From Cyanidioschyzon merolae (taxonomy: Eukaryota): DNA of 64,000 nt. Made by a program: the position numbers and the translations under genes. Positions 1,086-63,902 of this stretch are shown here, piece after piece. The stretch's first letter is position 1. Each line of letters begins with the position of its first letter. A model generated the notes under the pieces. It saw only the letters and a program-made list of their open reading frames with translations, was not told the origin of the DNA and ran no database searches. The stretch lies in assembly GCA_000091205.1 (NCBI GenBank), contig AP006501.2; one strand, given 5' to 3'.

Positions 1086-3391
1086 ATGAGCGATGTTTCG
1101 CTCCAAGGTGCGGAAAACGTCTCTCCTGTGCGTGAGCAGTTTCAGCAGCCTACGTCTAGTGCAGCAGATCCGCGAGAGCCCGCGGTCGGCAGCCGAGACT
1201 CAGCCGGCTACCCCCGAGAGCACAACGTTACCCCAGGTGTTCGGTCTAGTTCGGGTACGCAGCATGAGCGTCAGCGGACTGCGGCTTTAGCGGCCTGTGT
1301 TCGAGCGCTCGGCTGTTTCGGTGGTGCGCGAAACTCTCAATGGACGCAGGCCCAGGCGAAGCGGGAAACGACGACAGGCGCTACGGACCAATCAGCGGAA
1401 CCGTCGGTCCCGTGCGAGTCGAAAGTCGGGTCAGCAGTTGCGACTGAAAATACTGAGGACGTGCTGGGTGCTGTTGACGGCGACCACGGCGCCCCGGCCG
1501 ACGTGGACGCGGAGCGTTCTTCAGAGGTTTCTTCGGCGAGCGAGGAGCTTCCATTTCGCTCCCTGTATCGGCGGGCGCAGGTGAAATGGGCCCGCCGGCG
1601 ACTCGAGAAGCAGGTTCAGAAGCTGCTTGCATTTACCTCCACACAGCTTAGTAACCTGCAGCATGTTCGTTCCGGACAAAAGTTGGATGCCGAGTTTGCG
1701 ATCCTCGCACGAATATATACCAATGCACATATCGACGAGGATTTCGCAAGGTTTAGTCGTCAGGAGTTTCGAACCTTCGCGGAGCACTTGCCGCTGTTTC
1801 TGAATTACTTGTTGCATTCGCGGCCGCTCGATGCGCCGGCGACGAGCGCAGCGCAACGCAACGCCTGGCGAGAAGTTGCCTCTTCGACGAGAGAGCGCAT
1901 CCGCCGCCATCAGAATACTCGCAAGCTAATCGAGACGCATTTGTTGCGGCGCTGTAGCGAGTCTGTGCGTTTCGCCCTATTTGTTTATTGGTATTTGGAT
2001 GGTTGTCTGCAGCTTGGACCTGAATCGGACCGGAAGGATACCCTCCGAATTATTATTGAGATTGAGAACATCATGTCGAGGAGCATCACATGCGCGACGC
2101 CCTCTTCACAGGTCGCTGGGGCACGCCCCCCGGTCAAGTCGTTCATGGCGTCGGATACGCCGGACGCGGCGACAGCGGACTCGGCCCCGGCGACATGGAG
2201 CCCCGGTGCTGCGCTTGCGGCTCCCGCCGGTGAAGTGCTCAGCCCAGCAGACGCTGCCGACGTTGGGTCTGTTGAGAGGATCGTGCACCAGCGCGCGATC
2301 GTCCATGAGATCGGTAACGAGTCTCGAGGCGAGGGCGTCTTCAGAGATCGCATGCTGCAGGATGAGACATGTTTGGCAGGCATCCTACCTGCAGAGCATA
2401 CGATCGCAGTGGATCTCGACGCGGATGCAGCTGACTGTGCAGTGCGCTCTGCGGACTGCAGTTTTCCAGAGGCGCCTGGCGTTCAGTCAACGACAGAACA
2501 AGAGCCGCGCATGCTCGCCCAGTCAAGCTTGATGTCGAATACGCGCGTTTTTCCACGAGAATCCATAGAAACTGGCCCTGAACGGGAGATAAGTTTCGCA
2601 TATGTTTCCCGTGGTAATCTTTTTCATGCACAGCTAGATTTTATGCGCGCGCTCATATCCATCTCCGAATTGGCGCTAGGCCTGAATCGATCGCAAAGAT
2701 CACGATTCGTCGTGAGGGAACTAGGCCGCCTGAACGCGCTTGTGGAAGCAGAGCGGCGATATGTTTTTCTGCCAACGGAGCGCATTCCACACCGGGTGCT
2801 TCGCATCCTCGCAGACGAGTCACATGTGTTCTCGACAAAGGAACATGCGCCGTACCTGGCCATTGTCGAAGTGCAGGATCTGGAGTCAACCAAGCTCGCA
2901 GAGCGCGAGCCCCGCAAGACATTGGCACGCACCATTGGCGATTGGCTGCATCGGGCAGGAGAGTATCGCCCGCGAGCGCCCCGCTCCGAACAACGACATA
3001 CAATGACCTGGTTCGCTTCACCACGCGGCACCGAAGCCGTCAAATCCCCTGAAAGCGGTCTCGCAGCAGCAACATCACCAGCGACGACTCCCGATCCACC
3101 GACAAGCCCAGCGTCGCGAAGCGCACCCGCTGTCGATACGCCTTCACCTGCAGGAGAGGAGCTTTCACAGAGCCGTGGCGGGAAAAACGCCTCCGTGTCC
3201 GAGAAACGCAGTGCACGCACGCGATTGCACGCACAGGAGCGTCACGCACGGAATCGCGCCCTGCATGGCGTCGCGAATGCGGCGGCGCATTCACTGACGT
3301 TTCCTGGCCCTAATCAGGCGGAGGCACCGTTCCCATTCTCAACGCGAACAGGCACGGATGCCGCTGAGCTACCACCGATGACCCATCGGTC

Positions 3392-3429
<38 letters not shown>

Positions 3430-4529
3430 GTCTACGAGCGGACGGCGTCGGTTCCAGTCATCCAAATCTTGAGACTGCAGCTGCTTCGGCGACGGGTGAC
3501 GGGATGACTGCATCGATGCCTGCATGTAGCGAAGCACAGGATGCGCGGGATCTTGGAGCGGAACTGGAATCTGGTGAAATCAAAAACGCTTTGGCGGAAT
3601 CGCGTGAAGCATGCTCGACACCGACCAGTGTTGGCAGCGATCGTTGGCGACGTCTCTTTGGGGAGCGCTGGGCTGAAAGGGTTCAGCGTTTGCAGCAGAC
3701 GTCACCATTTGGCCGCATGCCCGGTTGGCGACTGACCTCTGTAATCGTGAAAAGCAAGGACCAACTGCGACAGGAAATGTTTGCAACCATGTTGATTGCT
3801 GAGTTTGCGCGCATCTTTGAGTCAGCTCGTCTTGACGTTTGGCTATGTCCGTACCGCATTGTTGCAACTGGGGCCGATTGCGGATTCGTGCAAGTAATCC
3901 CCGATGCGCCCTCCATTGATCAGATCAAGAAAGCTTTCCACGGTAACATGACGCTTTCTGGCTATTTTGAGGAACGGTTCGGAGCGCGCGGCAGCGCTAC
4001 ACATCGCTTGGCGGTTCGCAACTTTGTGAAAAGCATGGCCGCATACTCCGTTATCACATATCTCCTGAACATCAAAGATCGACACAACGGAAACCTGCTC
4101 ATTGATGCTGAAGGCCATATCATCCACATTGACTTTGGATTCTTCTTCACCAATTCACCTGGTGGCAATATCGAGTTCGAGAAGGCTCCCTTCAAACTCA
4201 CCTGGGAACTTGCCGATGTGATGGGCGGCCCCGACTCGAACGCGTTCCGCCTATTCCGACGACTCTGCGGGCATGCTTACGCCGAGGCCTGTGCGCATCG
4301 AAACAAGATCATGCTCATGGTAGAGTTCATGATGATGGGAAATGAGTCGCTGCCGTGCTTCCGCGGCGGGGCCGACCTCACCCTCGAGCAACTGCGAGAG
4401 CGGTTCATGCCGCGCCAGACCCGTGTCAAACGCATTGCGCACATGAACGCGCTTATCGATCGAAGCAGTAACCATTGGACGACGAGATTTTACGATCGCT
4501 ATCAGCGGTGCTGTACTGGAATTTATTAG
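1086..4529 (+). CDS. Phosphatidylinositol 4-kinase, PI4KIII-beta/Pik1 type, with a long low-complexity N-terminal region including poly-Gln
   Basis: C-terminal PI3/4-kinase catalytic domain: '...NIKDRHNGNLLIDAEGHIIHIDFGFFF...'. The ORF opens at TTG 1053 and the first ATG is 1086. Q12 run at 3398-3433. Confidence 0.85.
3398..3433 (+). repeat. (CAACAG)n / CAG-type trinucleotide repeat encoding poly-Gln inside the PI4K gene
   Basis: 'caacagcaacagcaacagcaacagcaacag' is visible and translates to QQQQQQQQQQQQ. Confidence 0.9.
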
Positions 4530-5417
4530 CTCCACGGTAAATGAGAGATCTCAATGGCTGGTATACACACTGGACAACGAGAACGGTCACCGTTCGGGTC
4601 GGGTCCGACCCTATACCGAAGTCCTGTCGCACGATACGCTGGACAGGTGCACTGCTGATGCGGACGAAGGCACCCCAGTCGAGTGCTGCACGTCGCGACG
4701 GTATGGCAAGCATCACCAACTTGCCGTCCAGTGGGTGCTCGGATTTCCGCTAAGCGAATCATTTAGATTTGTCGAGCGGCTGCGTCGCAGCCAGCGAAGG
4801 CAGGTCGAGTAGCAAGCGAATATATCGCGTGGCTCGCTACCCGGATGCCCGGACCCCAGTGCAGGTATCCTGTACGAGCGCGATCTGCTGTCGCAGACGC
4901 TCGCTACGCATGGGCGTTAGGTTCAGGCAGAAAAGCGACAGGCCAGTTCTCGATACAGCGACACGGCACAAGCAACGGAACGGAACACAAGCGTACTTAC
5001 CGAATGACGAGGCCCGAAGCCATGAGTCGCCGCTCTTGGTTCGGAGCACGCACGCACGCACACCATCACCCGCAGCAGTCTGACAACGATGCGTACGGCG
5101 TTGCAGTGTCCTAGTCGGGGCTCAAGGACACCCGCGGATGACCACTGGGAAGTGCAGGCGTCGTTTACGCGGAGCTGCTCGCGGACTGGCGAGCGGTTTG
5201 CCGGGCTCGTCGCGACACTGCGCGTGCCAACATGGACTGGGCGCCCGTCCGACTTGCGCTGAGCCTCGAGCCTGGTACAGCGCCGATGCGAACACGTGGA
5301 ACACAGAGGCCCACTCCTCTGGCAATGCTCGTCAATAGCATCCGCATGTAGACGGGTCAGCTTTGATGACGTTTTCTGAAGGCTGCCTTCCACAGAAACA
5401 CTGCCCGCTTCGATGTA

Positions 5418-5603
5418 CTACCCTGAACCAGATCGCAGTTTCCCGTGCCAGTATCGAATGCAAGCACTGTACCAGACAGTGCACCGACTGCAATTGACTC
5501 CAGACTATCCTGAACCAGATCGCCGTTTCCCGTGCCAGTATCGGAGGCAATCACTGTACCAGAAAGTGCACCGACTGCAATTGGATGTGTCTGGGTGCCG
5601 AGC
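5418..5603. repeat. Tandem duplication, 2 x ~93 bp, about 88% identical
   Basis: Unit 'cctgaaccagatcgc(a/c)gtttcccgtgccagtatcg(a/g)a(t/g)gcaa(g/t)cactgtaccaga(c/a)agtgcaccgactgcaattg' occurs twice back-to-back. It lies intergenic, ~850 bp upstream of the ArsS-like gene. Confidence 0.8.
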
Positions 5604-6447
5604 AACCACTGCAGCATATAATGAACTCGGAGACGAGCTCATCGCCGCACCTCCCTGGTAAGAACGCCCCAAGCAACAATCAAGCACTCTGATGGGCAAA
5701 GCGATATGAAAACAAGCGGGCTCCTCTTTGAAGCTTCAGTACGAGCATCTGTATCCAAGCGTGTGTACATCGACGCCCGCTCGTGATGCGGCGACTCCGC
5801 ATGAAAAATTCCAACTGCATTACAGAGACACCGAGGCGCTGTGGGTGCCCATTGTCAGCAGGGGTATCTCAATGGACGCTCAGAACATCGAGCATCGGGC
5901 GACATCGTCATGCATCCGGGCAAGTGCCGTTTCCGAAGCACAGAAGCGCTCGCATGCCGCTGTCCAGCGGATAGACGACGACAGGTGCAACTGCGGATGC
6001 CGCGCGCAAAAGATACAAACAAGACATATATGCTCCAAATTAGATATAAAGGACCAAGCTGTTGACGGGCGCATCTGGCGCGCCACCACGCCGCCTTCAC
6101 GACCGCGCTGGGTGCTACCCGACACCCCCGAACGTCTACCTCAGCGGCTGGGATTCCCTGCCGGAATCCTTCGCAGGTTCCGGACCAGAACAGAACGATT
6201 CACCCTATCTTTGCTGTCTTCGTTCGCTTACTTCTTCCATTCAACGCCACAAAGAGGTGACATGTACAGAAACTGTTTTGTAAGTCAAGGTTTCGCGGGG
6301 AAGTGCAGCGCCCCCGCAAAGCACCGCACGGCGAGCGCGTGGTGCAGGTGCCGTGGTGCACGTGGCGCCAGCTGGGCACCCTGCTTCAGAAACCGGTGCG
6401 CACCGCGGCGAACTGCGCGTGAAACTCGGCTCGGCCGTCTCGCAGCG

Positions 6448-7452
6448 ATGTTTCCGAGCGAAGACGCCGGAGAAAACGTTTTCGAAAAGCACATCGGGAG
6501 GCCGCTCTTTCACGAGAACCCAACCACGCTCCAAATTAACATCGGTTTGACCTGCAACATGGCGTGCAGTCATTGCCACGTTGAGTCGTCGCCAAACCGC
6601 AGGGAAACCATGTCCTTCGAGGTTGCCGACAGGATCCTAGAGCTCCTACGGAACTCCTGGTTCATCGAAACAGTGGATATTACTGGCGGTGCGCCCGAAA
6701 TGCACGACGCCTTTCGGTACCTGATCAGGCAGATACGCACGCACATACCGCATGTGCGAACCATCTACGATCGCTGCAACCTGACCATTCTTCGACAAAT
6801 AGAACAGTACGACTTGGTGGAATTCCTCAAACGACACCAAGTGGATATTATAGCTTCACTCCCGTGCTACGTTGAAGAGAACGTCGATCGACAACGTGGA
6901 AACACGGCTTATCGGAGGAGCATTGCGGCTTTGCTCGAGCTGAACCGTGCTGGATACGGTCTGCCCAATTCACCACATCACCTGCATCTGGTTTACAACC
7001 CGCTGGGTCCGTACTTGCCACCGAATCAACTTGGACTGGAAATCCAGTACCACGAGTATTTGTACCGTAATTTTGGCATATTCTTCAATCGACTGATCTG
7101 TATCACGAACATGCCCATCAAAAGATTCCTCGACGATCTCTGTCGGACCGGCTACTACGAAGCGTACATGGAACTGTTGGTCAACAGCTGTAACCTCGCT
7201 GCAGTGGACGGTGTCATGTGTCTCGACCAGATCCATGTGTCTTACGACGGGACGCTCCATGACTGCGATTTCAACTACGCGCTGGAGATGCCGGTGTGCT
7301 GGGGTCATCCTGATGACCCTGGTCCCCAGACCATCTTTGATTTGCAGCGTAGCTTCGATGAAGTCGCCGGAAAACAGATTCGAACGGGTGTGCACTGCTT
7401 TGGATGCACGGCGGGGAACGGATCGAGCTGTACCGGGGCGATCGTCACTTAG
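6448..7452 (+). CDS. arsS: Radical SAM/Cys-rich-domain protein of the ArsS type (arsenosugar-biosynthesis radical SAM family, TIGR04167/DUF3641-like)
   Basis: 'LQINIGLTCNMACSHCHVE' is the CxxxCxxC radical-SAM cluster in the ArsS-typical context. The Cys-rich C-terminus reads 'CLDQIHVSYDGTLHDCDFNY...CFGCTAGNGSSCTG'. Length ~334 aa fits ArsS. The upstream 240 codons of ORF 5728.. are low-complexity with no homology, so the start is set at ATG 6448. Confidence 0.75.
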   Translation: MFPSEDAGENVFEKHIGRPLFHENPTTLQINIGLTCNMACSHCHVESSPNRRETMSFEVADRILELLRNSWFIETVDITGGAPEMHDAFRYLIRQIRTHIPHVRTIYDRCNLTILRQIEQYDLVEFLKRHQVDIIASLPCYVEENVDRQRGNTAYRRSIAALLELNRAGYGLPNSPHHLHLVYNPLGPYLPPNQLGLEIQYHEYLYRNFGIFFNRLICITNMPIKRFLDDLCRTGYYEAYMELLVNSCNLAAVDGVMCLDQIHVSYDGTLHDCDFNYALEMPVCWGHPDDPGPQTIFDLQRSFDEVAGKQIRTGVHCFGCTAGNGSSCTGAIVT

Positions 7453-9712: not shown

Positions 9713-10078
9713 CTTTTCGTGACGAAAGTAAGCGTCCAAGGTTAGTTTTTGTTCTCAACAAGTGCGGAAAATGCACAGTCCTGATATCAACGACAACGCG
9801 CTCTACGCGAAGCGTGTCAGCGTACGCGCCGCAGAGGAAGCACACGTCGCCTCCGACGGCCACGGAACGGTGGAAGGTGCCGCCACCGGCGACGCCGAAC
9901 GCCTAGATTGCTCTCGCAAACGCGTTTAACAGCCACCCCATGAATAACAGGCTCATACTATTTCGCAGTTCGAGCCCGAACAGGGGCGCTGCAAAGATTC
10001 ATTTGCAGTTGTTCTAGGTGTTATAACGCTCAGAGACCTGAACGTCTCCGTATTTGATAGATCGGTGATCAAACTTAC
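9713..10078 (-). other. CCT4: Spliceosomal intron (366 nt) of CCT4, phase 0
   Basis: Donor 'atg|gtaagt' follows 'AAKM' (plus 10074-10079 reads 'acttac'). Acceptor '...cgaaaag|ttggtg'. The joined protein reads 'PAAKM|[15 protein letters not shown]', matching the conserved '[20 protein letters not shown]'. Confidence 0.8.
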
Positions 10079-10576: not shown

Positions 10577-11104
10577 ATGTTTGTACACGCAACGCTTTCC
10601 TTTCCTCGTGGTTTCGTGGGACTCGTGCGTCCATCCGTACAGCGAACGCTTGGTGAGACGTTCAGACGATTTGCGAGTCCAGGGCGTGGAGAGAGACCTC
10701 GCGTGGCGCTGGGAAGAGCGCACCAGGCGCTGCAGAGGCTCGCACGTCGACCGTTATGTGCGCTGGCGGGACGGCAGACTTTCGGTTCCTTCGACGAGAT
10801 GTTGAAGGCAGCGCCAGAACCGGCGCTCGTTGACTTTTACTCGAACACTTGTGGGCCGTGTGTTATGATGGGAAGAACGCTGGATCAGGTCGCTGGTAGG
10901 CTCAAGGCTATTCCCTGTCGGGTCATGAAAGTTGACGTGGACAAGTATCCGTCGATTGCAGACCGTTTCCAGATTCAGGCTCTGCCAACGCTGATTCTAT
11001 TTCGGGACGGCAAGGAGCTGAAGCGCTTTTTAGGCTATCGGGATGGTACCACCCTGGAACAAGAAGTACGCGAAAGTCTCGCCCAGACATCGCCGGCAGC
11101 ATGA
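10577..11104 (+). CDS. Thioredoxin with an N-terminal presequence (possibly organellar, Trx2-like). The core Trx fold spans ~10775-11104
   Basis: '[31 protein letters not shown]...[13 protein letters not shown]' is a thioredoxin fold with a TCGPC active site in place of WCGPC. The upstream in-frame Arg-rich '[25 protein letters not shown]...' resembles a targeting peptide. The start is uncertain: alternatives are ATG 10799 or an unseen upstream exon. Confidence 0.55.
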
Positions 11105-44933: not shown

Positions 44934-45767
44934 CTACACCAGACTTGAAACGGTTTCCGGATCCATTGTGTTCACGATACCTGCTTCCGATACCATGGTG
45001 GCGATGATATGACAGAGTTCCTCGTAGCGCTCTACAAGGATTTGCTCTAGCTTCTGGTGGTTGTCAACGCCAGCACCCAAGTAACCGACGCTGGTACCGT
45101 TTTGGGCTTCCTCAGACGTCCCAGACGAGAGGAGTGGTGGTTCCAAAGTTGTCGCGACGTTGCTCCGTGCCTGAGACGCCGTGAAAGGCAGAACGCTGCC
45201 TCCCTCGAGGTGCAGTGTACGGCGGAGGCACTGTTCGAACCTTTGGCCAAACTCCAACAGCAGAAGAGACTCATGTTCTCGCTCTCCAATGATGACCGCA
45301 ACTACATCACCCAAGCGTCGGACAAGGATCGTATAGTCCTCGAGGCGGAGGACCTGCTCGCGATCAGCTGCGGCTTCAGATAAACCCAACTGCGCCCACA
45401 CCGGTGGCAGCAACTCCTCCAACGTGCGAAGCAGGCGTTCGTTTAACTCCAGGGGACTCAGTCTGGCGCTCAGGATGTGCGCAGTTCCCGGAGCGGAACG
45501 CTCTCCAGCGTCGCTCGCTTGCCGGGTAGGGGTCAGGTTGCCACTGGTCCGTCGCTCCACCCCGAGGGCGCTGTGTGCAGGCCGAGCCGCTTTTCCAGCA
45601 GGAAAGTCCCCGAAGATGCTTCCATAGAGAATTCCACGAGTGTAATAAGATATGAGGTACAGCGCCCGAATCATGCGGCCCCAGACCTGCAACACGTTCG
45701 AGAATAACGTCAACGAAAGTACGTTGATCTGCAGCGCAAGCGCTGCGCCTGGTAAACTGCTTCTCAT
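44934..45767 (-). CDS. Hypothetical protein (277 aa), no confident family. Possible longin/roadblock-like fold
   Basis: ATG-initiated ORF with GC3-biased codon usage. 'DYTILVRRLGDVVAVIIGEREHESLLLLEFGQRFEQCL' resembles small alpha/beta regulatory domains. Confidence 0.35.
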   Translation of the reverse strand: MRSSLPGAALALQINVLSLTLFSNVLQVWGRMIRALYLISYYTRGILYGSIFGDFPAGKAARPAHSALGVERRTSGNLTPTRQASDAGERSAPGTAHILSARLSPLELNERLLRTLEELLPPVWAQLGLSEAAADREQVLRLEDYTILVRRLGDVVAVIIGEREHESLLLLEFGQRFEQCLRRTLHLEGGSVLPFTASQARSNVATTLEPPLLSSGTSEEAQNGTSVGYLGAGVDNHQKLEQILVERYEELCHIIATMVSEAGIVNTMDPETVSSLV

Positions 45768-54397: not shown

Positions 54398-55213
54398 TCA
54401 AGGCAAAGCAAGCATGTTCCGGTGTTCATAGTAGGCATAGAGTCGCTCAACGAGGGGGTCGAGGCTGAGCTTCACGCGGCGCATATACTCGTCTTTGCGG
54501 GACGCTTCCACTCCAATGGATGTAAGAAACTGTTCGATGGGAGGCAGGAAGAAAACCGCTGCACGAACCGCCGCAATAACGACGCTCCCGTGGTGTTCAC
54601 GCAGCGCCTCCTGGTACGCGGTCCAGACGCACTCGCGTGTCGCCGCGCGTTTCGAGTAGGACGCTGCCGGGCAGCGCGCGAGCTCCCGCATGAGTACCTG
54701 AATGAACTTGAGGCACCACATCATTCGCAGAATATTACGGGCTGCACCTTGCTTACCACTGCCGGTTTCCAGACACCCTTCTCGGGTTTCTCGCTCGATA
54801 ACCTTACGAATAGTGGCGTAATTCTCTGGGTCGCTCCGGTATATGCGGTACAGCGTGTCACGCTTTTCAACAACATCCTGGTGCGCGAAAGAGAATGCAG
54901 CACCGAGGTGCTGAAACATGCCCGCAACTGCGGACAAAGCCGCAATAAAGTCCAGCAGGTACGGCAGCGGCCAAGGCTCTTGCGCAGGCGGCTCGTCGTA
55001 GCGGATTCGCTCAAACGCTTCGAGAAACTTTTCGAATGAGAACGGCGTACCAGCGTCAGTGGTAATTCGATCAAGTTCGTTTCCTTTCGCTGACAACTCG
55101 CGAACGTGCATCCAAGATTCACTCTGTTCATCCCGTTGAGTCATAGTGTCGACCTGTCGGGAACGAGTGACCAAACGAGATGCGCCGTACCGCAGGTGTT
55201 CGGCGAGCCGCAT
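54398..55213 (-). CDS. Glycolipid transfer protein (GLTP/ACD11 superfamily)
   Basis: 'FSFEKFLEAFERI' and 'GSGKQGAARNILRMMWCLKFIQVLMREL' parallel GLTP 'FLEAVSHL' and 'KVGATLALMWLKRGLRFIQVFL'. An alternative in-frame ATG lies at 55144. Confidence 0.75.
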   Translation of the reverse strand: MRLAEHLRYGASRLVTRSRQVDTMTQRDEQSESWMHVRELSAKGNELDRITTDAGTPFSFEKFLEAFERIRYDEPPAQEPWPLPYLLDFIAALSAVAGMFQHLGAAFSFAHQDVVEKRDTLYRIYRSDPENYATIRKVIERETREGCLETGSGKQGAARNILRMMWCLKFIQVLMRELARCPAASYSKRAATRECVWTAYQEALREHHGSVVIAAVRAAVFFLPPIEQFLTSIGVEASRKDEYMRRVKLSLDPLVERLYAYYEHRNMLALP

Positions 55214-62690: not shown

Positions 62691-63902
62691 TCATTCCTCT
62701 TCCATGGGTACGTCGACCTGCACCAGCTCGATATCGAAGATCAAGAGTGCATTTTTCGGGAGCATTTGTCCGAACATTTCGGACATATTCTCGCAGCTTT
62801 CCGGGTGCACGTAAACGGTGCGCGCCTCGCCCTCGTGCATGTCGAGAACGATCTTTCTGAGCGCAGGCGGAGCGTCACCCACGCGCATGGTAATTGGATT
62901 CACCATTTCTCCGTTTTCATCGGACGGGCACGTAAAGAAGAAGCGCCCATCCAATAGACGGCCTTGCAACACCATCATGACGTTCACGTCATCGCTTTCG
63001 CATTTCTTGTGTGAGCCCCCTGCGGTCGCAGACGGCTCAGCGTCGTCGACTTCCTCCCAGACAATACGATCCGGTTCCAGGACATTAAACAGTTCTGGCA
63101 TTGTCTTTGCGGTCTCGAAGAAAGCTTCCGCCTCTTGCAAATTGATTTCACCAACGACATCATTCGCGATACCTTGTAGGATGCCCATCTGTCGCTCGTA
63201 TTTTGCGATATTAACCGGAAATTCTTTGCCGGCAAGCGCGTCACGAAAGCCGCGAATCACAAGCTCGTGATCGAGGCCGAATCCCGAGTTCAACAACGCC
63301 TGACCCAATGCAAAGCCATAGCCTATGGATAATTCGTTGAGATTCAGTCCCTGAGCACGTGCGAGCTCGCGCGTGCGCTCATCTCGCAACCGAGCACTCT
63401 CCTTGGCGGGATTTTCGGCCTCTGCGTCGTCAGCGCGTTCATCGTCTCCGGTATCCACCATGAGCCGGGATGAAGTCTGATGCACACCGTCGTGATGCCT
63501 GCGGTCGCTACCTGCCGCTGCATGGAGTGCGGAAGCTGCGCGCGCTGCGCCACTCGTCTGACCTGCTGCCTCGGTGGCGGCACTCAGACCTCCCTGCTGG
63601 GCGAATAGCTCTCTGGCAGCGCGCATAGACTCAGCCCATTTCTGAGGATCCTCCACAACTTCACGAAATTGCGGATCCGCATCCATCCATTGACGCAGAA
63701 AAGGATTGTTAAGGAGCGCTTGGCGCGACTCCTCCTGCTTCTCCGCAGATGAGAGGTACTCCTGCATTGCAGGCGATTCCCATAGTCCGCCCATTAACTG
63801 GGTCATCTGCTGCAACCAGTTCATGGTATCCGCCTGATCGCCACCTGCGGCGCCGCTGTTACCAGCGAGGAGCGACTGCAGGAGCGCGTTCGGATCAGCC
63901 AT
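62691..63902 (-). CDS. FKBP-type peptidyl-prolyl isomerase, Mip/FkpA-like, with an N-terminal STI1-like low-complexity region. The reading frame stays open upstream to the window edge
   Basis: C-terminal FKBP domain: 'VMMVLQGRLLDGRFFF...ITMRVGDAPPALRKIVLDMHEGE...LLIFDIELVQV'. Preceding FkpA-N-like 'LSIGYGFALGQALLNSGFGLDHELVIRGFRDALAGKEF'. ATG at 63902, but no stop in frame between 63903 and 64000. Confidence 0.75.
   Translation of the reverse strand: MADPNALLQSLLAGNSGAAGGDQADTMNWLQQMTQLMGGLWESPAMQEYLSSAEKQEESRQALLNNPFLRQWMDADPQFREVVEDPQKWAESMRAARELFAQQGGLSAATEAAGQTSGAARAASALHAAAGSDRRHHDGVHQTSSRLMVDTGDDERADDAEAENPAKESARLRDERTRELARAQGLNLNELSIGYGFALGQALLNSGFGLDHELVIRGFRDALAGKEFPVNIAKYERQMGILQGIANDVVGEINLQEAEAFFETAKTMPELFNVLEPDRIVWEEVDDAEPSATAGGSHKKCESDDVNVMMVLQGRLLDGRFFFTCPSDENGEMVNPITMRVGDAPPALRKIVLDMHEGEARTVYVHPESCENMSEMFGQMLPKNALLIFDIELVQVDVPMEEE

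What the first reader, a model, noticed from the sequence alone, without database searches (positions are those of the whole stretch)
6448..7452. Bacterial-type ArsS-like radical SAM gene in a eukaryotic chromosome
The protein has the radical-SAM cluster in the 'LQ(I/V)N(I/V)G..CN..C.HCHVE' context typical of the ArsS/DUF3641 family implicated in arsenosugar biosynthesis, plus the C-terminal Cys-rich domain. It is intronless with host-like GC3 codon usage. No ArsM-like methyltransferase is adjacent. This suggests either an old horizontal acquisition that has been fully host-adapted or an algal-lineage arsenic-lipid/arsenosugar pathway gene.
Basis: partly seen in the sequence, partly recalled or inferred. 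Interest (0 to 1): 0.55.

Follow-up and report, generated by a model that had tools for sequence, protein, structure and literature searches.

The report
Red-alga arsenosugar radical SAM gene (ArsS)
This is an intact, already annotated nuclear gene of the hot-spring red alga Cyanidioschyzon merolae that belongs to the ArsS enzyme family, which makes the first arsenic-sugar intermediate; it is an ordinary, anciently inherited algal gene, not a recent bacterial import.

Summary
Window 6448-7452 (+) encodes a radical SAM protein that scores 380 bits on the ArsS equivalog model TIGR04167 (cut-off 300) and has a DUF3641 Cys-rich tail. The real CDS starts 186 nt upstream, at 6262 (396 aa). That sequence matches XP_005538899.1 / UniProt M1VM03 of Cyanidioschyzon merolae 10D exactly, annotated "hypothetical protein, conserved" / "Radical SAM/Cys-rich domain protein".

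The extra 62 residues are a basic N-terminal extension. Every eukaryotic homolog examined has one and the bacterial ones do not. Diatom homologs carry signal-peptide/ASAFAP-type plastid signals, so a plastid location is likely (inferred).

The gene is intronless with host-like codon usage. It is syntenic in two related Cyanidiales and under purifying selection (dN/dS 0.07). No ArsM-like gene lies in the 64 kb window; literature reports arsM elsewhere in cyanidiophycean genomes.

In an NJ tree the gene sits in a red-algal clade (93% bootstrap), so it is not a recent extremophile HGT. It never groups with cyanobacteria (0%). The most likely function is adenosylation of dimethylarsenite to DDMAA, inferred by homology.

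Verdict: correct call, modest novelty. No eukaryotic ArsS was described in the literature I could search.

The parts
6262..7452 (+). Full coding sequence of the ArsS-family protein (396 aa plus stop), equal to C. merolae 10D XP_005538899.1 / BAM82863.1 / UniProt M1VM03
   Evidence: Exact-sequence match of window:6262-7449 to the RefSeq protein. The ortholog on L002 is 397 aa from its only upstream ATG. The SNP distribution against strain L001 also fits.
6262..6447 (+). N-terminal extension of 62 aa (MYRNCFVSQGFAGK...RLGRLAA): basic, Ala/Ser/Arg-rich, Phe at position 6. Probable organelle (plastid) transit peptide.
   Evidence: Over the first 68 residues, RK=14 and DE=3. The extension is absent from bacterial homologs and present but poorly conserved in all eukaryotic homologs examined. 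Diatom homologs have a signal peptide plus ASAFAP-like junctions. The targeting role itself is inferred, not tested.
6448..7452 (+).
   Evidence: TIGR04167 scores 380 bits over residues 23-332. The AlphaFold2 model has mean pLDDT 91.2.
6553..6576 (+). CNMACSHC: the CxxxCxxC motif that binds the radical SAM [4Fe-4S] cluster
   Evidence: Translation. C36/C40/C43 are invariant in a 95-sequence alignment.
6676..6699 (+). DITGGAPE: the 'GGE'-type SAM-binding motif of the radical SAM core
   Evidence: Translation. D77, T79, G80, G81, A82, P83 and E84 are invariant in 95 sequences. The SAM-binding role follows from general radical SAM knowledge.
7015..7440 (+). DUF3641 (PF12345) C-terminal Cys-rich domain
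   Evidence: Pfam 151 bits, residues 190-331, profile 1-134/134.
7219..7266 (+). CLDQIHVSYDGTLHDC: a CX9GX4C motif of the spacing seen in SPASM/twitch auxiliary-cluster domains
   Evidence: Translation. C258, G268 and C273 are invariant. The nearest solved folds are SPASM/twitch radical SAM enzymes.
7396..7431 (+). CFGCTAGNGSSC: a CX2CX7C motif near the C-terminus. NCBIfam calls the family a '(seleno)protein', so some members contain Sec; here every conserved Cys position is Cys.
   Evidence: Translation. C317, C320 and C328 are invariant. The family name comes from NCBIfam.

Best explanation

Proposed mechanism, step by step:
1. The 62-aa N-terminal extension directs the protein into an organelle, most likely the plastid (inferred).
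2. The CxxxCxxC-bound [4Fe-4S]+ cluster reductively cleaves SAM to a 5'-deoxyadenosyl radical. The motifs are shown here; the chemistry is known for the family.
3. The radical adds directly to the arsenic of dimethylarsenite, DMAs(III), instead of abstracting a hydrogen. The As-centred radical then returns an electron to the cluster, giving DDMAA in a redox-neutral reaction. This is known for bacterial ArsS from the literature and inferred here by orthology.
4. DMAs(III) comes from ArsM, which is encoded elsewhere in the genome (literature; not in this window).
5. DDMAA is the committed precursor of arsenosugars and arsenosugar lipids.

The C-terminal DUF3641 domain (CX9GX4C...CX2CX7C) is twitch/SPASM-like. 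It probably holds an auxiliary Fe-S cluster or binds the thiophilic As(III) substrate (inferred).

Evolutionarily the gene is an old, vertically inherited red-algal gene within a pan-algal clade. It is not a recent extremophile HGT, and in this analysis it does not derive from the cyanobacterial ArsS lineage.
For: Family membership: TIGR04167 scores 380 bits against a cut-off of 300 and the next family scores 36 bits. DUF3641 matches at full length. Every family-invariant residue is retained in alignments of 12 and 95 sequences. The fold model is confident (pLDDT 91.2).

The gene is real and functional: it matches RefSeq XP_005538899.1 exactly. Synteny of ArsS next to an intron-split CCT gene is conserved in two other Cyanidiales contigs; the longer one also carries the upstream PI3/4-kinase. 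dN/dS is 0.07 between the two orthologs. Codon usage is host-like.

Link to arsenic: 25 of 80 bacterial arsS loci carry an ArsM-like gene within 4 kb. These include L029, L053 and L054, which branch nearest the eukaryotic clade. A cyanobacterial plasmid has arsM-TVP38-arsS.

Mechanism from the literature: ArsS adenosylates DMAs(III) to DDMAA, redox-neutrally (PMC13598754; bioRxiv 10.64898/2026.04.29.721666). arsS is co-transcribed with arsM in Synechocystis and encodes the first committed step (bioRxiv 10.1101/2022.09.23.509062, citing Xue 2019). arsM is present in 1-4 copies per cyanidiophycean species (PMC9812998).

Origin: the red-algal clade has 93% bootstrap, cyanobacteria 100%, and eukaryotes plus cyanobacteria 0%. 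Mean identities are eukaryote-bacteria 52.7%, cyanobacteria-bacteria 52.2% and eukaryote-cyanobacteria 47.5%.

Targeting: N-terminal extensions occur in all eukaryotic homologs examined, and diatom homologs have SNA|FF, ADA|FS and VDA|FA junctions after a hydrophobic signal peptide.
Against: No biochemical or genetic data exist for any eukaryotic ArsS in the literature I could search. To my knowledge arsenosugars have not been reported from Cyanidioschyzon. The published cyanidiophycean arsenic pathway scheme contains only redox, methylation and transport steps (PMC9812998).

The protein is only 43-48% identical to cyanobacterial ArsS, the clade annotated 'arsenosugar biosynthesis'. In 55 of 80 bacterial loci there is no ArsM within 4 kb, and many instead have MerA-like or TVP38 neighbours, so the family may not be mono-functional.

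Plastid targeting was not run through a predictor, and a mitochondrial presequence would look similar in C. merolae. The phylogeny is neighbour-joining with a simple distance correction. The all-eukaryote node has only 45-56% support, and bacterial sampling was biased toward the sequences most similar to the query.
Confidence: 0.75

Rival explanations
1. The protein is a genuine member of the TIGR04167/DUF3641 family but does not act on dimethylarsenite in the alga. It would adenosylate another soft nucleophile (for example a selenium, antimony or sulfur species) or serve a housekeeping plastid role.
For: 55 of 80 bacterial loci lack an ArsM-like neighbour, while 21 of 80 have a MerA-like flavoprotein and 11 of 80 a TVP38 protein next to arsS. 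In Burkholderia the neighbours are thioredoxin/CcdA, not arsM. The NCBIfam model's short name, 'rSAM_SeCys', points to selenoproteins. The family is retained in algae from habitats where I know of no arsenic enrichment, such as diatoms and Klebsormidium.
Against: The score is above the curated equivalog cut-off. ArsM-linked loci are scattered over the whole bacterial tree, including the branches next to the eukaryotes. Algae are the classic producers of arsenosugars (PMC11009773), and no other enzyme for this As-C bond came up in my searches.
Confidence: 0.15
2. The gene is a recent horizontal acquisition by thermoacidophilic Cyanidiales from hot-spring bacteria, as an adaptation to arsenic. 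This would resemble the horizontally acquired arsenic genes (arsB, arsC) that the literature reports for Galdieria.
For: C. merolae lives in arsenic-rich acid springs. HGT-derived metal-resistance genes are documented in this group (PMC9812998; PMC6629376 listed). The best-scoring bacterial homologs (Nitrospirae, Acidobacteriota) reach 52-53% identity, against 54-55% for the best named algal hits.
Against: The gene groups with mesophilic red algae (Porphyridium, Gracilariopsis, Rhodochaete, Purpureofilum) at 82-93% bootstrap, with no bacterium inside that clade. Codon usage is host-like. It carries a eukaryote-type N-terminal extension. Synteny is conserved across three Cyanidioschyzon-like lineages that are only about 72% identical in protein sequence.
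Confidence: 0.03
3. The gene descends from the cyanobacterial ancestor of the plastid (endosymbiotic gene transfer), and the lack of cyanobacterial affinity is a tree-building artefact.
For: The protein appears plastid-targeted in diatoms and probably in red algae. It occurs in red algae, a streptophyte alga and diatoms, the pattern expected of a plastid-derived gene. Cyanobacteria have arsM-arsS clusters. From memory, Cheng et al. 2021 proposed a cyanobacterial origin for the family; I could not verify this here.
Against: Eukaryotes and cyanobacteria never group in 100 bootstraps, and the 10 cyanobacterial sequences form a tight clade (82% mean identity) that branches among Acidobacteriota, Nitrospira and Gemmatimonadota. 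By mean distance, 84 of 89 sampled bacterial sequences are closer to the algal clade than any sampled cyanobacterium. Only 10 cyanobacteria were sampled, all found by similarity to one Pseudanabaena sequence.
Confidence: 0.15
4. Assembly contamination or a decaying pseudogene: a bacterial fragment mis-assembled into the algal chromosome, or a relic without function.
For: None beyond the general 'bacterial-looking' domain architecture.
Against: The gene is flanked on both sides by eukaryotic genes, including one with a spliceosomal intron. The same gene order appears in independent assemblies and metagenomes. The ORF is intact with all invariant residues, and dN/dS is 0.07.
Confidence: 0.01

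Closest known systems
Bacterial/cyanobacterial ArsS (DDMAA synthase; NCBIfam TIGR04167; the Synechocystis sp. PCC 6803 enzyme was characterised by Xue et al. 2019 and Cheng et al. 2021)
   Same: Same domain architecture (radical SAM core plus DUF3641), same invariant motifs (QxNxG..CN..C.HCHV, DITGGAPE, DRCNLT, SLPCY, QRG, NMPIKRF, CX9GX4C, CX2CX7C) and colinear over about 310 residues. It scores above the equivalog cut-off.
   Different: Only 43-48% identical to cyanobacterial members. It is nuclear, monocistronic and not adjacent to arsM. It carries a 62-aa N-terminal targeting-type extension. Its activity has not been tested.
ArsS homologs of other algae (Cyanidium caldarium CDCA06G1926, Galdieria, Porphyridium FVE85_7977, Gracilariopsis BWQ96_08080, diatoms, Klebsormidium KFL_000070430), all database entries without published characterisation
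   Same: 54-57% identical over the BLASTP alignment (55-59% over the trimmed alignment columns), same clade, and all with N-terminal extensions.
   Different: Apart from the 100%-identical Logan cluster representative (P0001), the C. merolae protein has closer relatives (72-74%) only in unnamed Cyanidioschyzon-like metagenome or SRA contigs. Its presequence is unrelated in sequence to theirs.
SPASM/twitch radical SAM enzymes (SkfB 6efn, SuiB 5v1s, EpeE 8ai2, anSME 4k39, MoaA 1tv7, BtrN 4m7t)
   Same: These are the closest solved folds (Foldseek E 1e-10 to 1e-5, TM 0.33-0.56). They share the CX9-15GX4C-type spacing in the C-terminal domain (direct reading).
   Different: 12-18% identity. Sequence models of these families score no more than 36 bits against cut-offs of 265-850. 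ArsS acts on a small arsenical by radical addition, not by H-abstraction from peptides or sugars (literature). No ArsS structure is in the PDB.
ArsL (arsinothricin biosynthesis radical SAM enzyme)
   Same: It is the other radical SAM enzyme that forms a C-As bond and works with an ArsM.
   Different: ArsL cleaves SAM non-canonically to a 3-amino-3-carboxypropyl radical and acts on inorganic As(III). No ArsL model appears among the 25 NCBIfam hits shown, of 37 in total.

Membership tests
ArsS / TIGR04167 (arsenosugar biosynthesis radical SAM protein, DDMAA synthase) | Whole-protein score above the curated equivalog cut-off of the family HMM | tested here: met
   380.1 bits against a cut-off of 300, covering profile positions 5-303 of 303. 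The next family scores 35.8 bits.
ArsS / TIGR04167 | Canonical radical SAM CxxxCxxC cluster motif in the family-specific context (T)LQxNxGxxCNxxCxHCHV | tested here: met
   TLQINIGLTCNMACSHCHV at 6526-6582. Q29, N31, C36, C40, H42, C43, H44 and V45 are invariant in 95 sequences.
ArsS / TIGR04167 | C-terminal DUF3641 (PF12345) domain with its five conserved cysteines | tested here: met
   PF12345 at 151 bits, full length. C258, C273, C317, C320 and C328 are all present and invariant.
ArsS / TIGR04167 | Phylogenetic placement inside the family rather than as an outlier | tested here: met
   The protein nests in a red-algal clade (93% bootstrap) within a tree of 122 family members.
ArsS / TIGR04167 | Functional partnership with ArsM (in bacteria often an adjacent, co-transcribed gene) | tested here: not met
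   There is no ArsM-like sequence anywhere in the 64-kb window (tblastn E<=1e-3; Pfam scans). Adjacency is not expected in a eukaryote and is absent in 55 of 80 bacterial loci, so it is not strictly defining. arsM is reported elsewhere in cyanidiophycean genomes (PMC9812998), which I could not check on the genome itself.
ArsS / TIGR04167 | Catalysis: SAM-dependent adenosylation of DMAs(III) to DDMAA | not testable with these tools
   This needs anaerobic enzymology or a knockout with arsenic speciation. It is known only for bacterial members.
   The best such models score 20-32 bits against cut-offs of 265-850. The C-terminal motif is CX2CX7C, not CX2CX5CX3C. Only a remote fold resemblance exists (TM 0.33-0.56).
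Recent HGT-derived extremophile genes of Cyanidiales | Cyanidiales sequences nested among prokaryotes, to the exclusion of other red algae and eukaryotes | tested here: not met
   The Cyanidiales sequences group with mesophilic red algae at 82-93% bootstrap.
Plastid-derived (cyanobacterial EGT) genes | Algal clade sister to or nested within cyanobacteria | tested here: not met
   0 of 100 bootstraps support it, and cyanobacteria rank 56th of 59 groups by distance to the algal clade. The method is NJ only and cyanobacterial sampling was limited, so this is provisional.
Nucleus-encoded plastid-targeted proteins of red-lineage algae | N-terminal transit peptide (red algae: basic and hydroxylated with Phe near the N-terminus; diatoms: signal peptide plus ASAFAP motif) | tested here: inconclusive
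   The window protein has a 62-aa extension. Over its first 68 residues, RK=14 and DE=3, with the first Phe at position 6. Diatom homologs show clear SNA|FF, ADA|FS and VDA|FA junctions. No localisation predictor or experiment was available, and the motif rules are from my own knowledge.

The most novel reading that the evidence does not exclude
Cyanidioschyzon and other Cyanidiophyceae are described in the literature I read as only oxidising, reducing, methylating and exporting arsenic. They may also run a plastid-located arsenosugar or arsenosugar-lipid branch, started by an ArsS that algae acquired anciently from a non-cyanobacterial bacterium and retargeted to the plastid. C. merolae has a small, almost intron-free genome and, to my knowledge, allows targeted gene replacement. 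It would therefore be a practical system for confirming the eukaryotic DDMAA synthase and for finding the downstream arsenosugar steps, which none of the papers I read describe.
Probability: 0.4. Interest if true: 0.5.

Novelty: new member of a known kind. Interest (0 to 1): 0.3.

Why it matters
According to the papers read here, arsenosugars and arsenosugar lipids are the main organic arsenic species in marine algae, and diet, including seafood, is the main human source of arsenic exposure. Yet the enzymology has been worked out only in bacteria and cyanobacteria. The papers I could search name no eukaryotic ArsS, and a recent reconstruction of the cyanidiophycean arsenic pathway has no arsenosugar branch.

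The model red alga C. merolae carries a conserved, selected and probably plastid-targeted ArsS ortholog. This gives a concrete, testable gene for the algal pathway and suggests the arsenic metabolism of hot-spring red algae is incompletely described.

This is an incremental result. The gene is already in RefSeq and UniProt, and automatic family models identify it. A specialist would expect algae to have ArsS.

Tried and rejected
1. Reading the primary papers. Xue et al. 2019 (DOI and PMC6467767) and Qin et al. 2009 (PMC2664070) are not held. Statements about them rest on citing papers or on my memory and are marked as such.

2. Literature searches for a eukaryotic or algal ArsS returned nothing relevant. 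The reviews opened do not mention the gene.

3. A third ortholog (P0003 on L085) for the start-codon question. The contig ends 104 nt upstream of the called gene, so it gives no N-terminal information.

4. dN/dS of the window gene against its orthologs. Synonymous sites are saturated and dS is not computable, so only the L002-L085 pair gave a value.

5. Measuring Cys-Cys geometry in the AlphaFold model, to decide between an auxiliary cluster and an arsenic-binding site. Model coordinates are not exposed to the script sandbox.

6. The PDB sequence search found no ArsS structure, only distant radical SAM cores.

Cyanobacterial sequences had to be obtained through a plasmid hit and a second protein search, so bacterial sampling is uneven.

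8. Considered and rejected: contamination or a pseudogene, a SPASM peptide maturase, and recent HGT (see the rival explanations).
Full report
OBSERVATION. Window 6448-7452 (+) translates without interruption into 334 residues ending in a stop. It contains TLQINIGLTCNMACSHCHVESSP, with CxxxCxxC at 6553-6576. Pfam reports Radical_SAM (43 bits) and a full-length DUF3641/PF12345 domain (151 bits; residues 190-331). NCBIfam's equivalog model TIGR04167, 'arsenosugar biosynthesis radical SAM (seleno)protein ArsS', scores 380.1 bits against a curated cut-off of 300. The next best family, an unrelated radical SAM, scores 36 bits.

WHERE THE GENE STARTS. The frame is open from 5728, with in-frame ATGs at 5872, 6262 and 6448. 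Four results favour 6262.
- The 396-aa product of 6262-7449 is an exact match to XP_005538899.1 / BAM82863.1 / UniProt M1VM03, while the 334-aa version is not in the 15-billion-protein collection.
- The syntenic ortholog on metagenome contig L002 (72% identical) has no Met at the position equivalent to 6448. Its only ATG upstream of the Fe-S motif gives 397 aa.
- Against a 99.4%-identical strain (L001), 14 of 16 substitutions fall in 4874-6261, none in 6262-6447 and two in 6448-7452.

WHAT THE WINDOW IS. Seven long ORFs of the window are exact matches to RefSeq proteins of Cyanidioschyzon merolae strain 10D on a 1,282,939-bp record. They include exportin-1 XP_005538905, GlnRS XP_005538916, REV1 XP_005538909, a GDT1-like protein and IDH. 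Other genes are typical eukaryotic nuclear genes: PI3/4-kinase, PHD-finger proteins, PPR, DHHC, GLTP and FKBP. The CCT chaperonin gene next to ArsS is split by a canonical intron (GTAAGT...ACTAAC...AG, roughly 10078 to 9713 on the minus strand). The ArsS gene is therefore already annotated in a reference genome, as 'hypothetical protein, conserved' in NCBI and 'Radical SAM/Cys-rich domain protein' in UniProt.

IS IT A LIVE HOST GENE? Yes.
- GC3 is 0.644, within the 0.54-0.65 range of 14 neighbouring genes.
- Its RSCU profile correlates with the pooled neighbours at r = 0.61, inside their own range of 0.56-0.87.
- The ArsS gene next to an intron-split CCT gene is conserved on two other Cyanidioschyzon-like contigs that are only 71-72% identical at the protein level. 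L002, a 159-kb JGI metagenome contig, also carries the upstream PI3/4-kinase; L085 is a Logan/SRA contig.
- Between those two orthologs dN/dS is 0.07. Against the window gene dS is saturated and dN is about 0.21.
- All residues invariant across 95 family members are present.
- AlphaFold2 gives a confident model (mean pLDDT 91.2, pTM 0.91).

Contamination and pseudogene explanations are excluded.

ANATOMY AND LIKELY MECHANISM. The core has the radical SAM partial-barrel motifs: CxxxCxxC at 6553-6576, DITGGAPE at 6676-6699, and DRCNLT, SLPCY and QRG. The DUF3641 tail contains CX9GX4C (7219-7266) and CX2CX7C (7396-7431). The first spacing is the one seen in SPASM/twitch auxiliary-cluster domains. 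Consistent with this, the closest solved folds are SkfB, SuiB, EpeE, anSME, MoaA and BtrN, but only at TM 0.33-0.56 and 12-18% identity. No ArsS structure exists in the PDB.

For the family, the literature states the following. ArsS uses the 5'-deoxyadenosyl radical from SAM to alkylate the arsenic of DMAs(III), rather than to abstract hydrogen. [quoted passage not shown] In Synechocystis, arsS is co-transcribed with arsM and encodes the first committed step to arsenosugars (bioRxiv 10.1101/2022.09.23.509062, citing Xue et al. 2019). I infer the same reaction for the C. merolae protein, with the Cys-rich tail binding either an auxiliary cluster or the thiophilic substrate. The activity is not shown here.

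THE ArsM QUESTION. In bacteria the linkage is common but not universal. Of the 80 best bacterial loci, 25 have an ArsM-like gene within 4 kb. The five I checked hit arsenite-methyltransferase models best, though below cut-off. These ArsM-linked loci include the Sedimentisphaerales, Methylophilaceae and gammaproteobacterial sequences that branch closest to the eukaryotes. A further 21 of 80 have a MerA-like flavoprotein and 11 of 80 a TVP38 protein as neighbours. The cyanobacterial plasmid pPg_02 has merA-like, arsM, TVP38 and arsS in a row. For the alga itself, Cho et al. 2023 report arsM in 1-4 copies in each of 16 Cyanidiophyceae and note that these group with other red-algal arsM genes (PMC9812998). 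The substrate-supplying enzyme is therefore present in the lineage, but I could not verify it on the C. merolae genome with these tools.

LOCALISATION (INFERRED). The 62-aa extension (MYRNCFVSQGFAGKCSAPAKHRTASAWCRCRGARGASWAPCFRNRCAPRRTARETRLGRLAA) is strongly basic, Ala/Ser/Arg-rich and has Phe at position 6. Other red-algal homologs begin MACFVS..., MMGASTAAFTS... and MDFRIDAAFATP.... Diatom homologs have a hydrophobic signal peptide followed by SNA|FF, ADA|FS or VDA|FA. From my own knowledge, these are the patterns of red-algal transit peptides and of the diatom ASAFAP plastid-import motif. I therefore consider a plastid location most likely (about 60%), with mitochondrial targeting as the alternative.

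ORIGIN. More than 8000 homologs exist, and at least 599 bacterial species representatives encode one. The best named hits are Cyanidium caldarium (55%), Galdieria (54%), other red algae, diatoms and Klebsormidium. Acidobacteria and Nitrospirae follow at 51-53%. Cyanobacterial ArsS form a tight group, at least 70% identical to the Pseudanabaena query used to find them and averaging 82% among the ten sampled. A Pseudanabaena ArsS is only 43% identical to the window protein by tblastn, and 48% over the trimmed alignment columns.

I built a neighbour-joining tree of 122 sequences over 292 trimmed columns, with 100 bootstraps. The main support values are below.

| Grouping | Bootstrap support |
|---|---|
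| Window gene plus its two orthologs | 100% |
| Red-algal clade, including mesophiles | 93% (82% in the first run) |
| Diatoms | 99% |
| All eukaryotes | 45-56% |
| Cyanobacteria | 100% |
| Eukaryotes plus cyanobacteria | 0% |

Mean identities are eukaryote-bacteria 52.7%, cyanobacteria-bacteria 52.2% and eukaryote-cyanobacteria 47.5%. By mean distance, 84 of 89 sampled bacterial sequences are closer to the algal clade than any sampled cyanobacterium.

The gene is therefore vertically inherited within Rhodophyta and is not a recent extremophile HGT. The data do not support derivation from the cyanobacterial ArsS lineage, so an ancient acquisition from another bacterium followed by plastid retargeting is the better-supported reading. 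This conclusion is provisional because the tree is NJ only and the sampling is uneven. Two Phycisphaerae sequences (L029, L080) sit next to the red-algal clade with weak support (36-46%).

COMPARISON WITH WHAT IS KNOWN, AND NOVELTY. By every sequence criterion tested, the protein is a member of the ArsS family. Only the non-defining arsM adjacency is absent, and catalysis is untestable here. The gene is already in RefSeq and UniProt, and automatic models identify it. My searches found no paper describing an ArsS in any eukaryote. The recent cyanidiophycean arsenic-pathway scheme has no arsenosugar branch. I rate it a new, uncharacterised member of a known kind, with interest 0.3. The call is correct, and the result is useful as a pointer to an overlooked branch of algal arsenic metabolism in a tractable model organism. 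It is not surprising, given that algae are the classic arsenosugar producers.

Noticed in passing
window 5417-5583: An 87-bp tandem repeat (1.9 copies, 92% match) lies in the intergenic region between the PI3/4-kinase gene and ArsS. It produces the mirrored short ORFs listed at 5357-5661. Three of the 16 SNPs against strain L001 fall at 5356-5367, just upstream of it, and two more (5460, 5566) lie within it.
   Followed up: partly
window about 9713-10078 (minus strand): The CCT (TCP-1 family) chaperonin gene downstream of ArsS is split by a canonical spliceosomal intron (GTAAGT ... ACTAAC ... AG). Exon 1 ends at ...PAAKM and exon 2 resumes at LVNLAKSQDIE. The same split is seen in the orthologous contigs L002 and L085. 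Introns are rare in this genome (from memory).
   Followed up: partly
bacterial loci L005, L006, L011, L015, L018, L020, L026, L031, L034, L036, L041, L046, L047, L049, L051, L053, L055, L072, L074, L076, L080; L083:1329-4704: In 21 of 80 bacterial arsS loci a MerA-like pyridine-nucleotide disulfide oxidoreductase lies within 4 kb, and in 11 of 80 a TVP38/TMEM64 membrane protein, often without an ArsM. This conserved neighbourhood is not accounted for in the ArsS papers I read. It hints at an extra redox or transport component, or at a second function of the family.
   Followed up: partly
L029 (Sedimentisphaerales) and L080 (Phycisphaeraceae), match at about 4001-4951 and 2132-3226: Two Phycisphaerae ArsS sequences branch beside the red-algal clade in the NJ tree with weak support (36-46%). 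L029 has an ArsM-like gene adjacent. This could mark the donor lineage, an alga-to-bacterium transfer, or long-branch noise.
   Followed up: partly
window 54398-55213 (-), 44934-45767 (-), 62691-63902 (-): The longest ORFs for the GLTP-domain protein (271 aa), the zeta-COP-like protein (277 aa) and the FKBP (403 aa here) differ in length from the RefSeq models (248, 246 and 576 aa). Metagenome gene calls mostly use the longer 271- and 277-aa forms. The reference start codons may be debatable. The 576-aa RefSeq FKBP model is longer than the 403-aa ORF and would reach beyond the window end; that part was not examined.
   Followed up: no
window 10787-11071 (+): A thioredoxin-domain ORF lies about 3.3 kb downstream of ArsS, beyond the CCT gene. 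In Burkholderia thailandensis plasmid p2002721643 a thioredoxin-family gene and ccdA also lie next to arsS (L084). No thioredoxin gene was called in the corresponding part of the syntenic contig L002, so this is probably coincidence.
   Followed up: no
P0001 and cluster members; window 5848-7452: Prokaryote-style gene callers on metagenome and SRA contigs give this gene three different lengths: 535, 396/334 and 280 aa. The 535-aa calls run through non-conserved upstream sequence, and the 280-aa calls drop the Fe-S motif. This explains why the 72%-identical orthologs P0002 and P0003 appeared to lack a Radical_SAM domain.
   Followed up: yes
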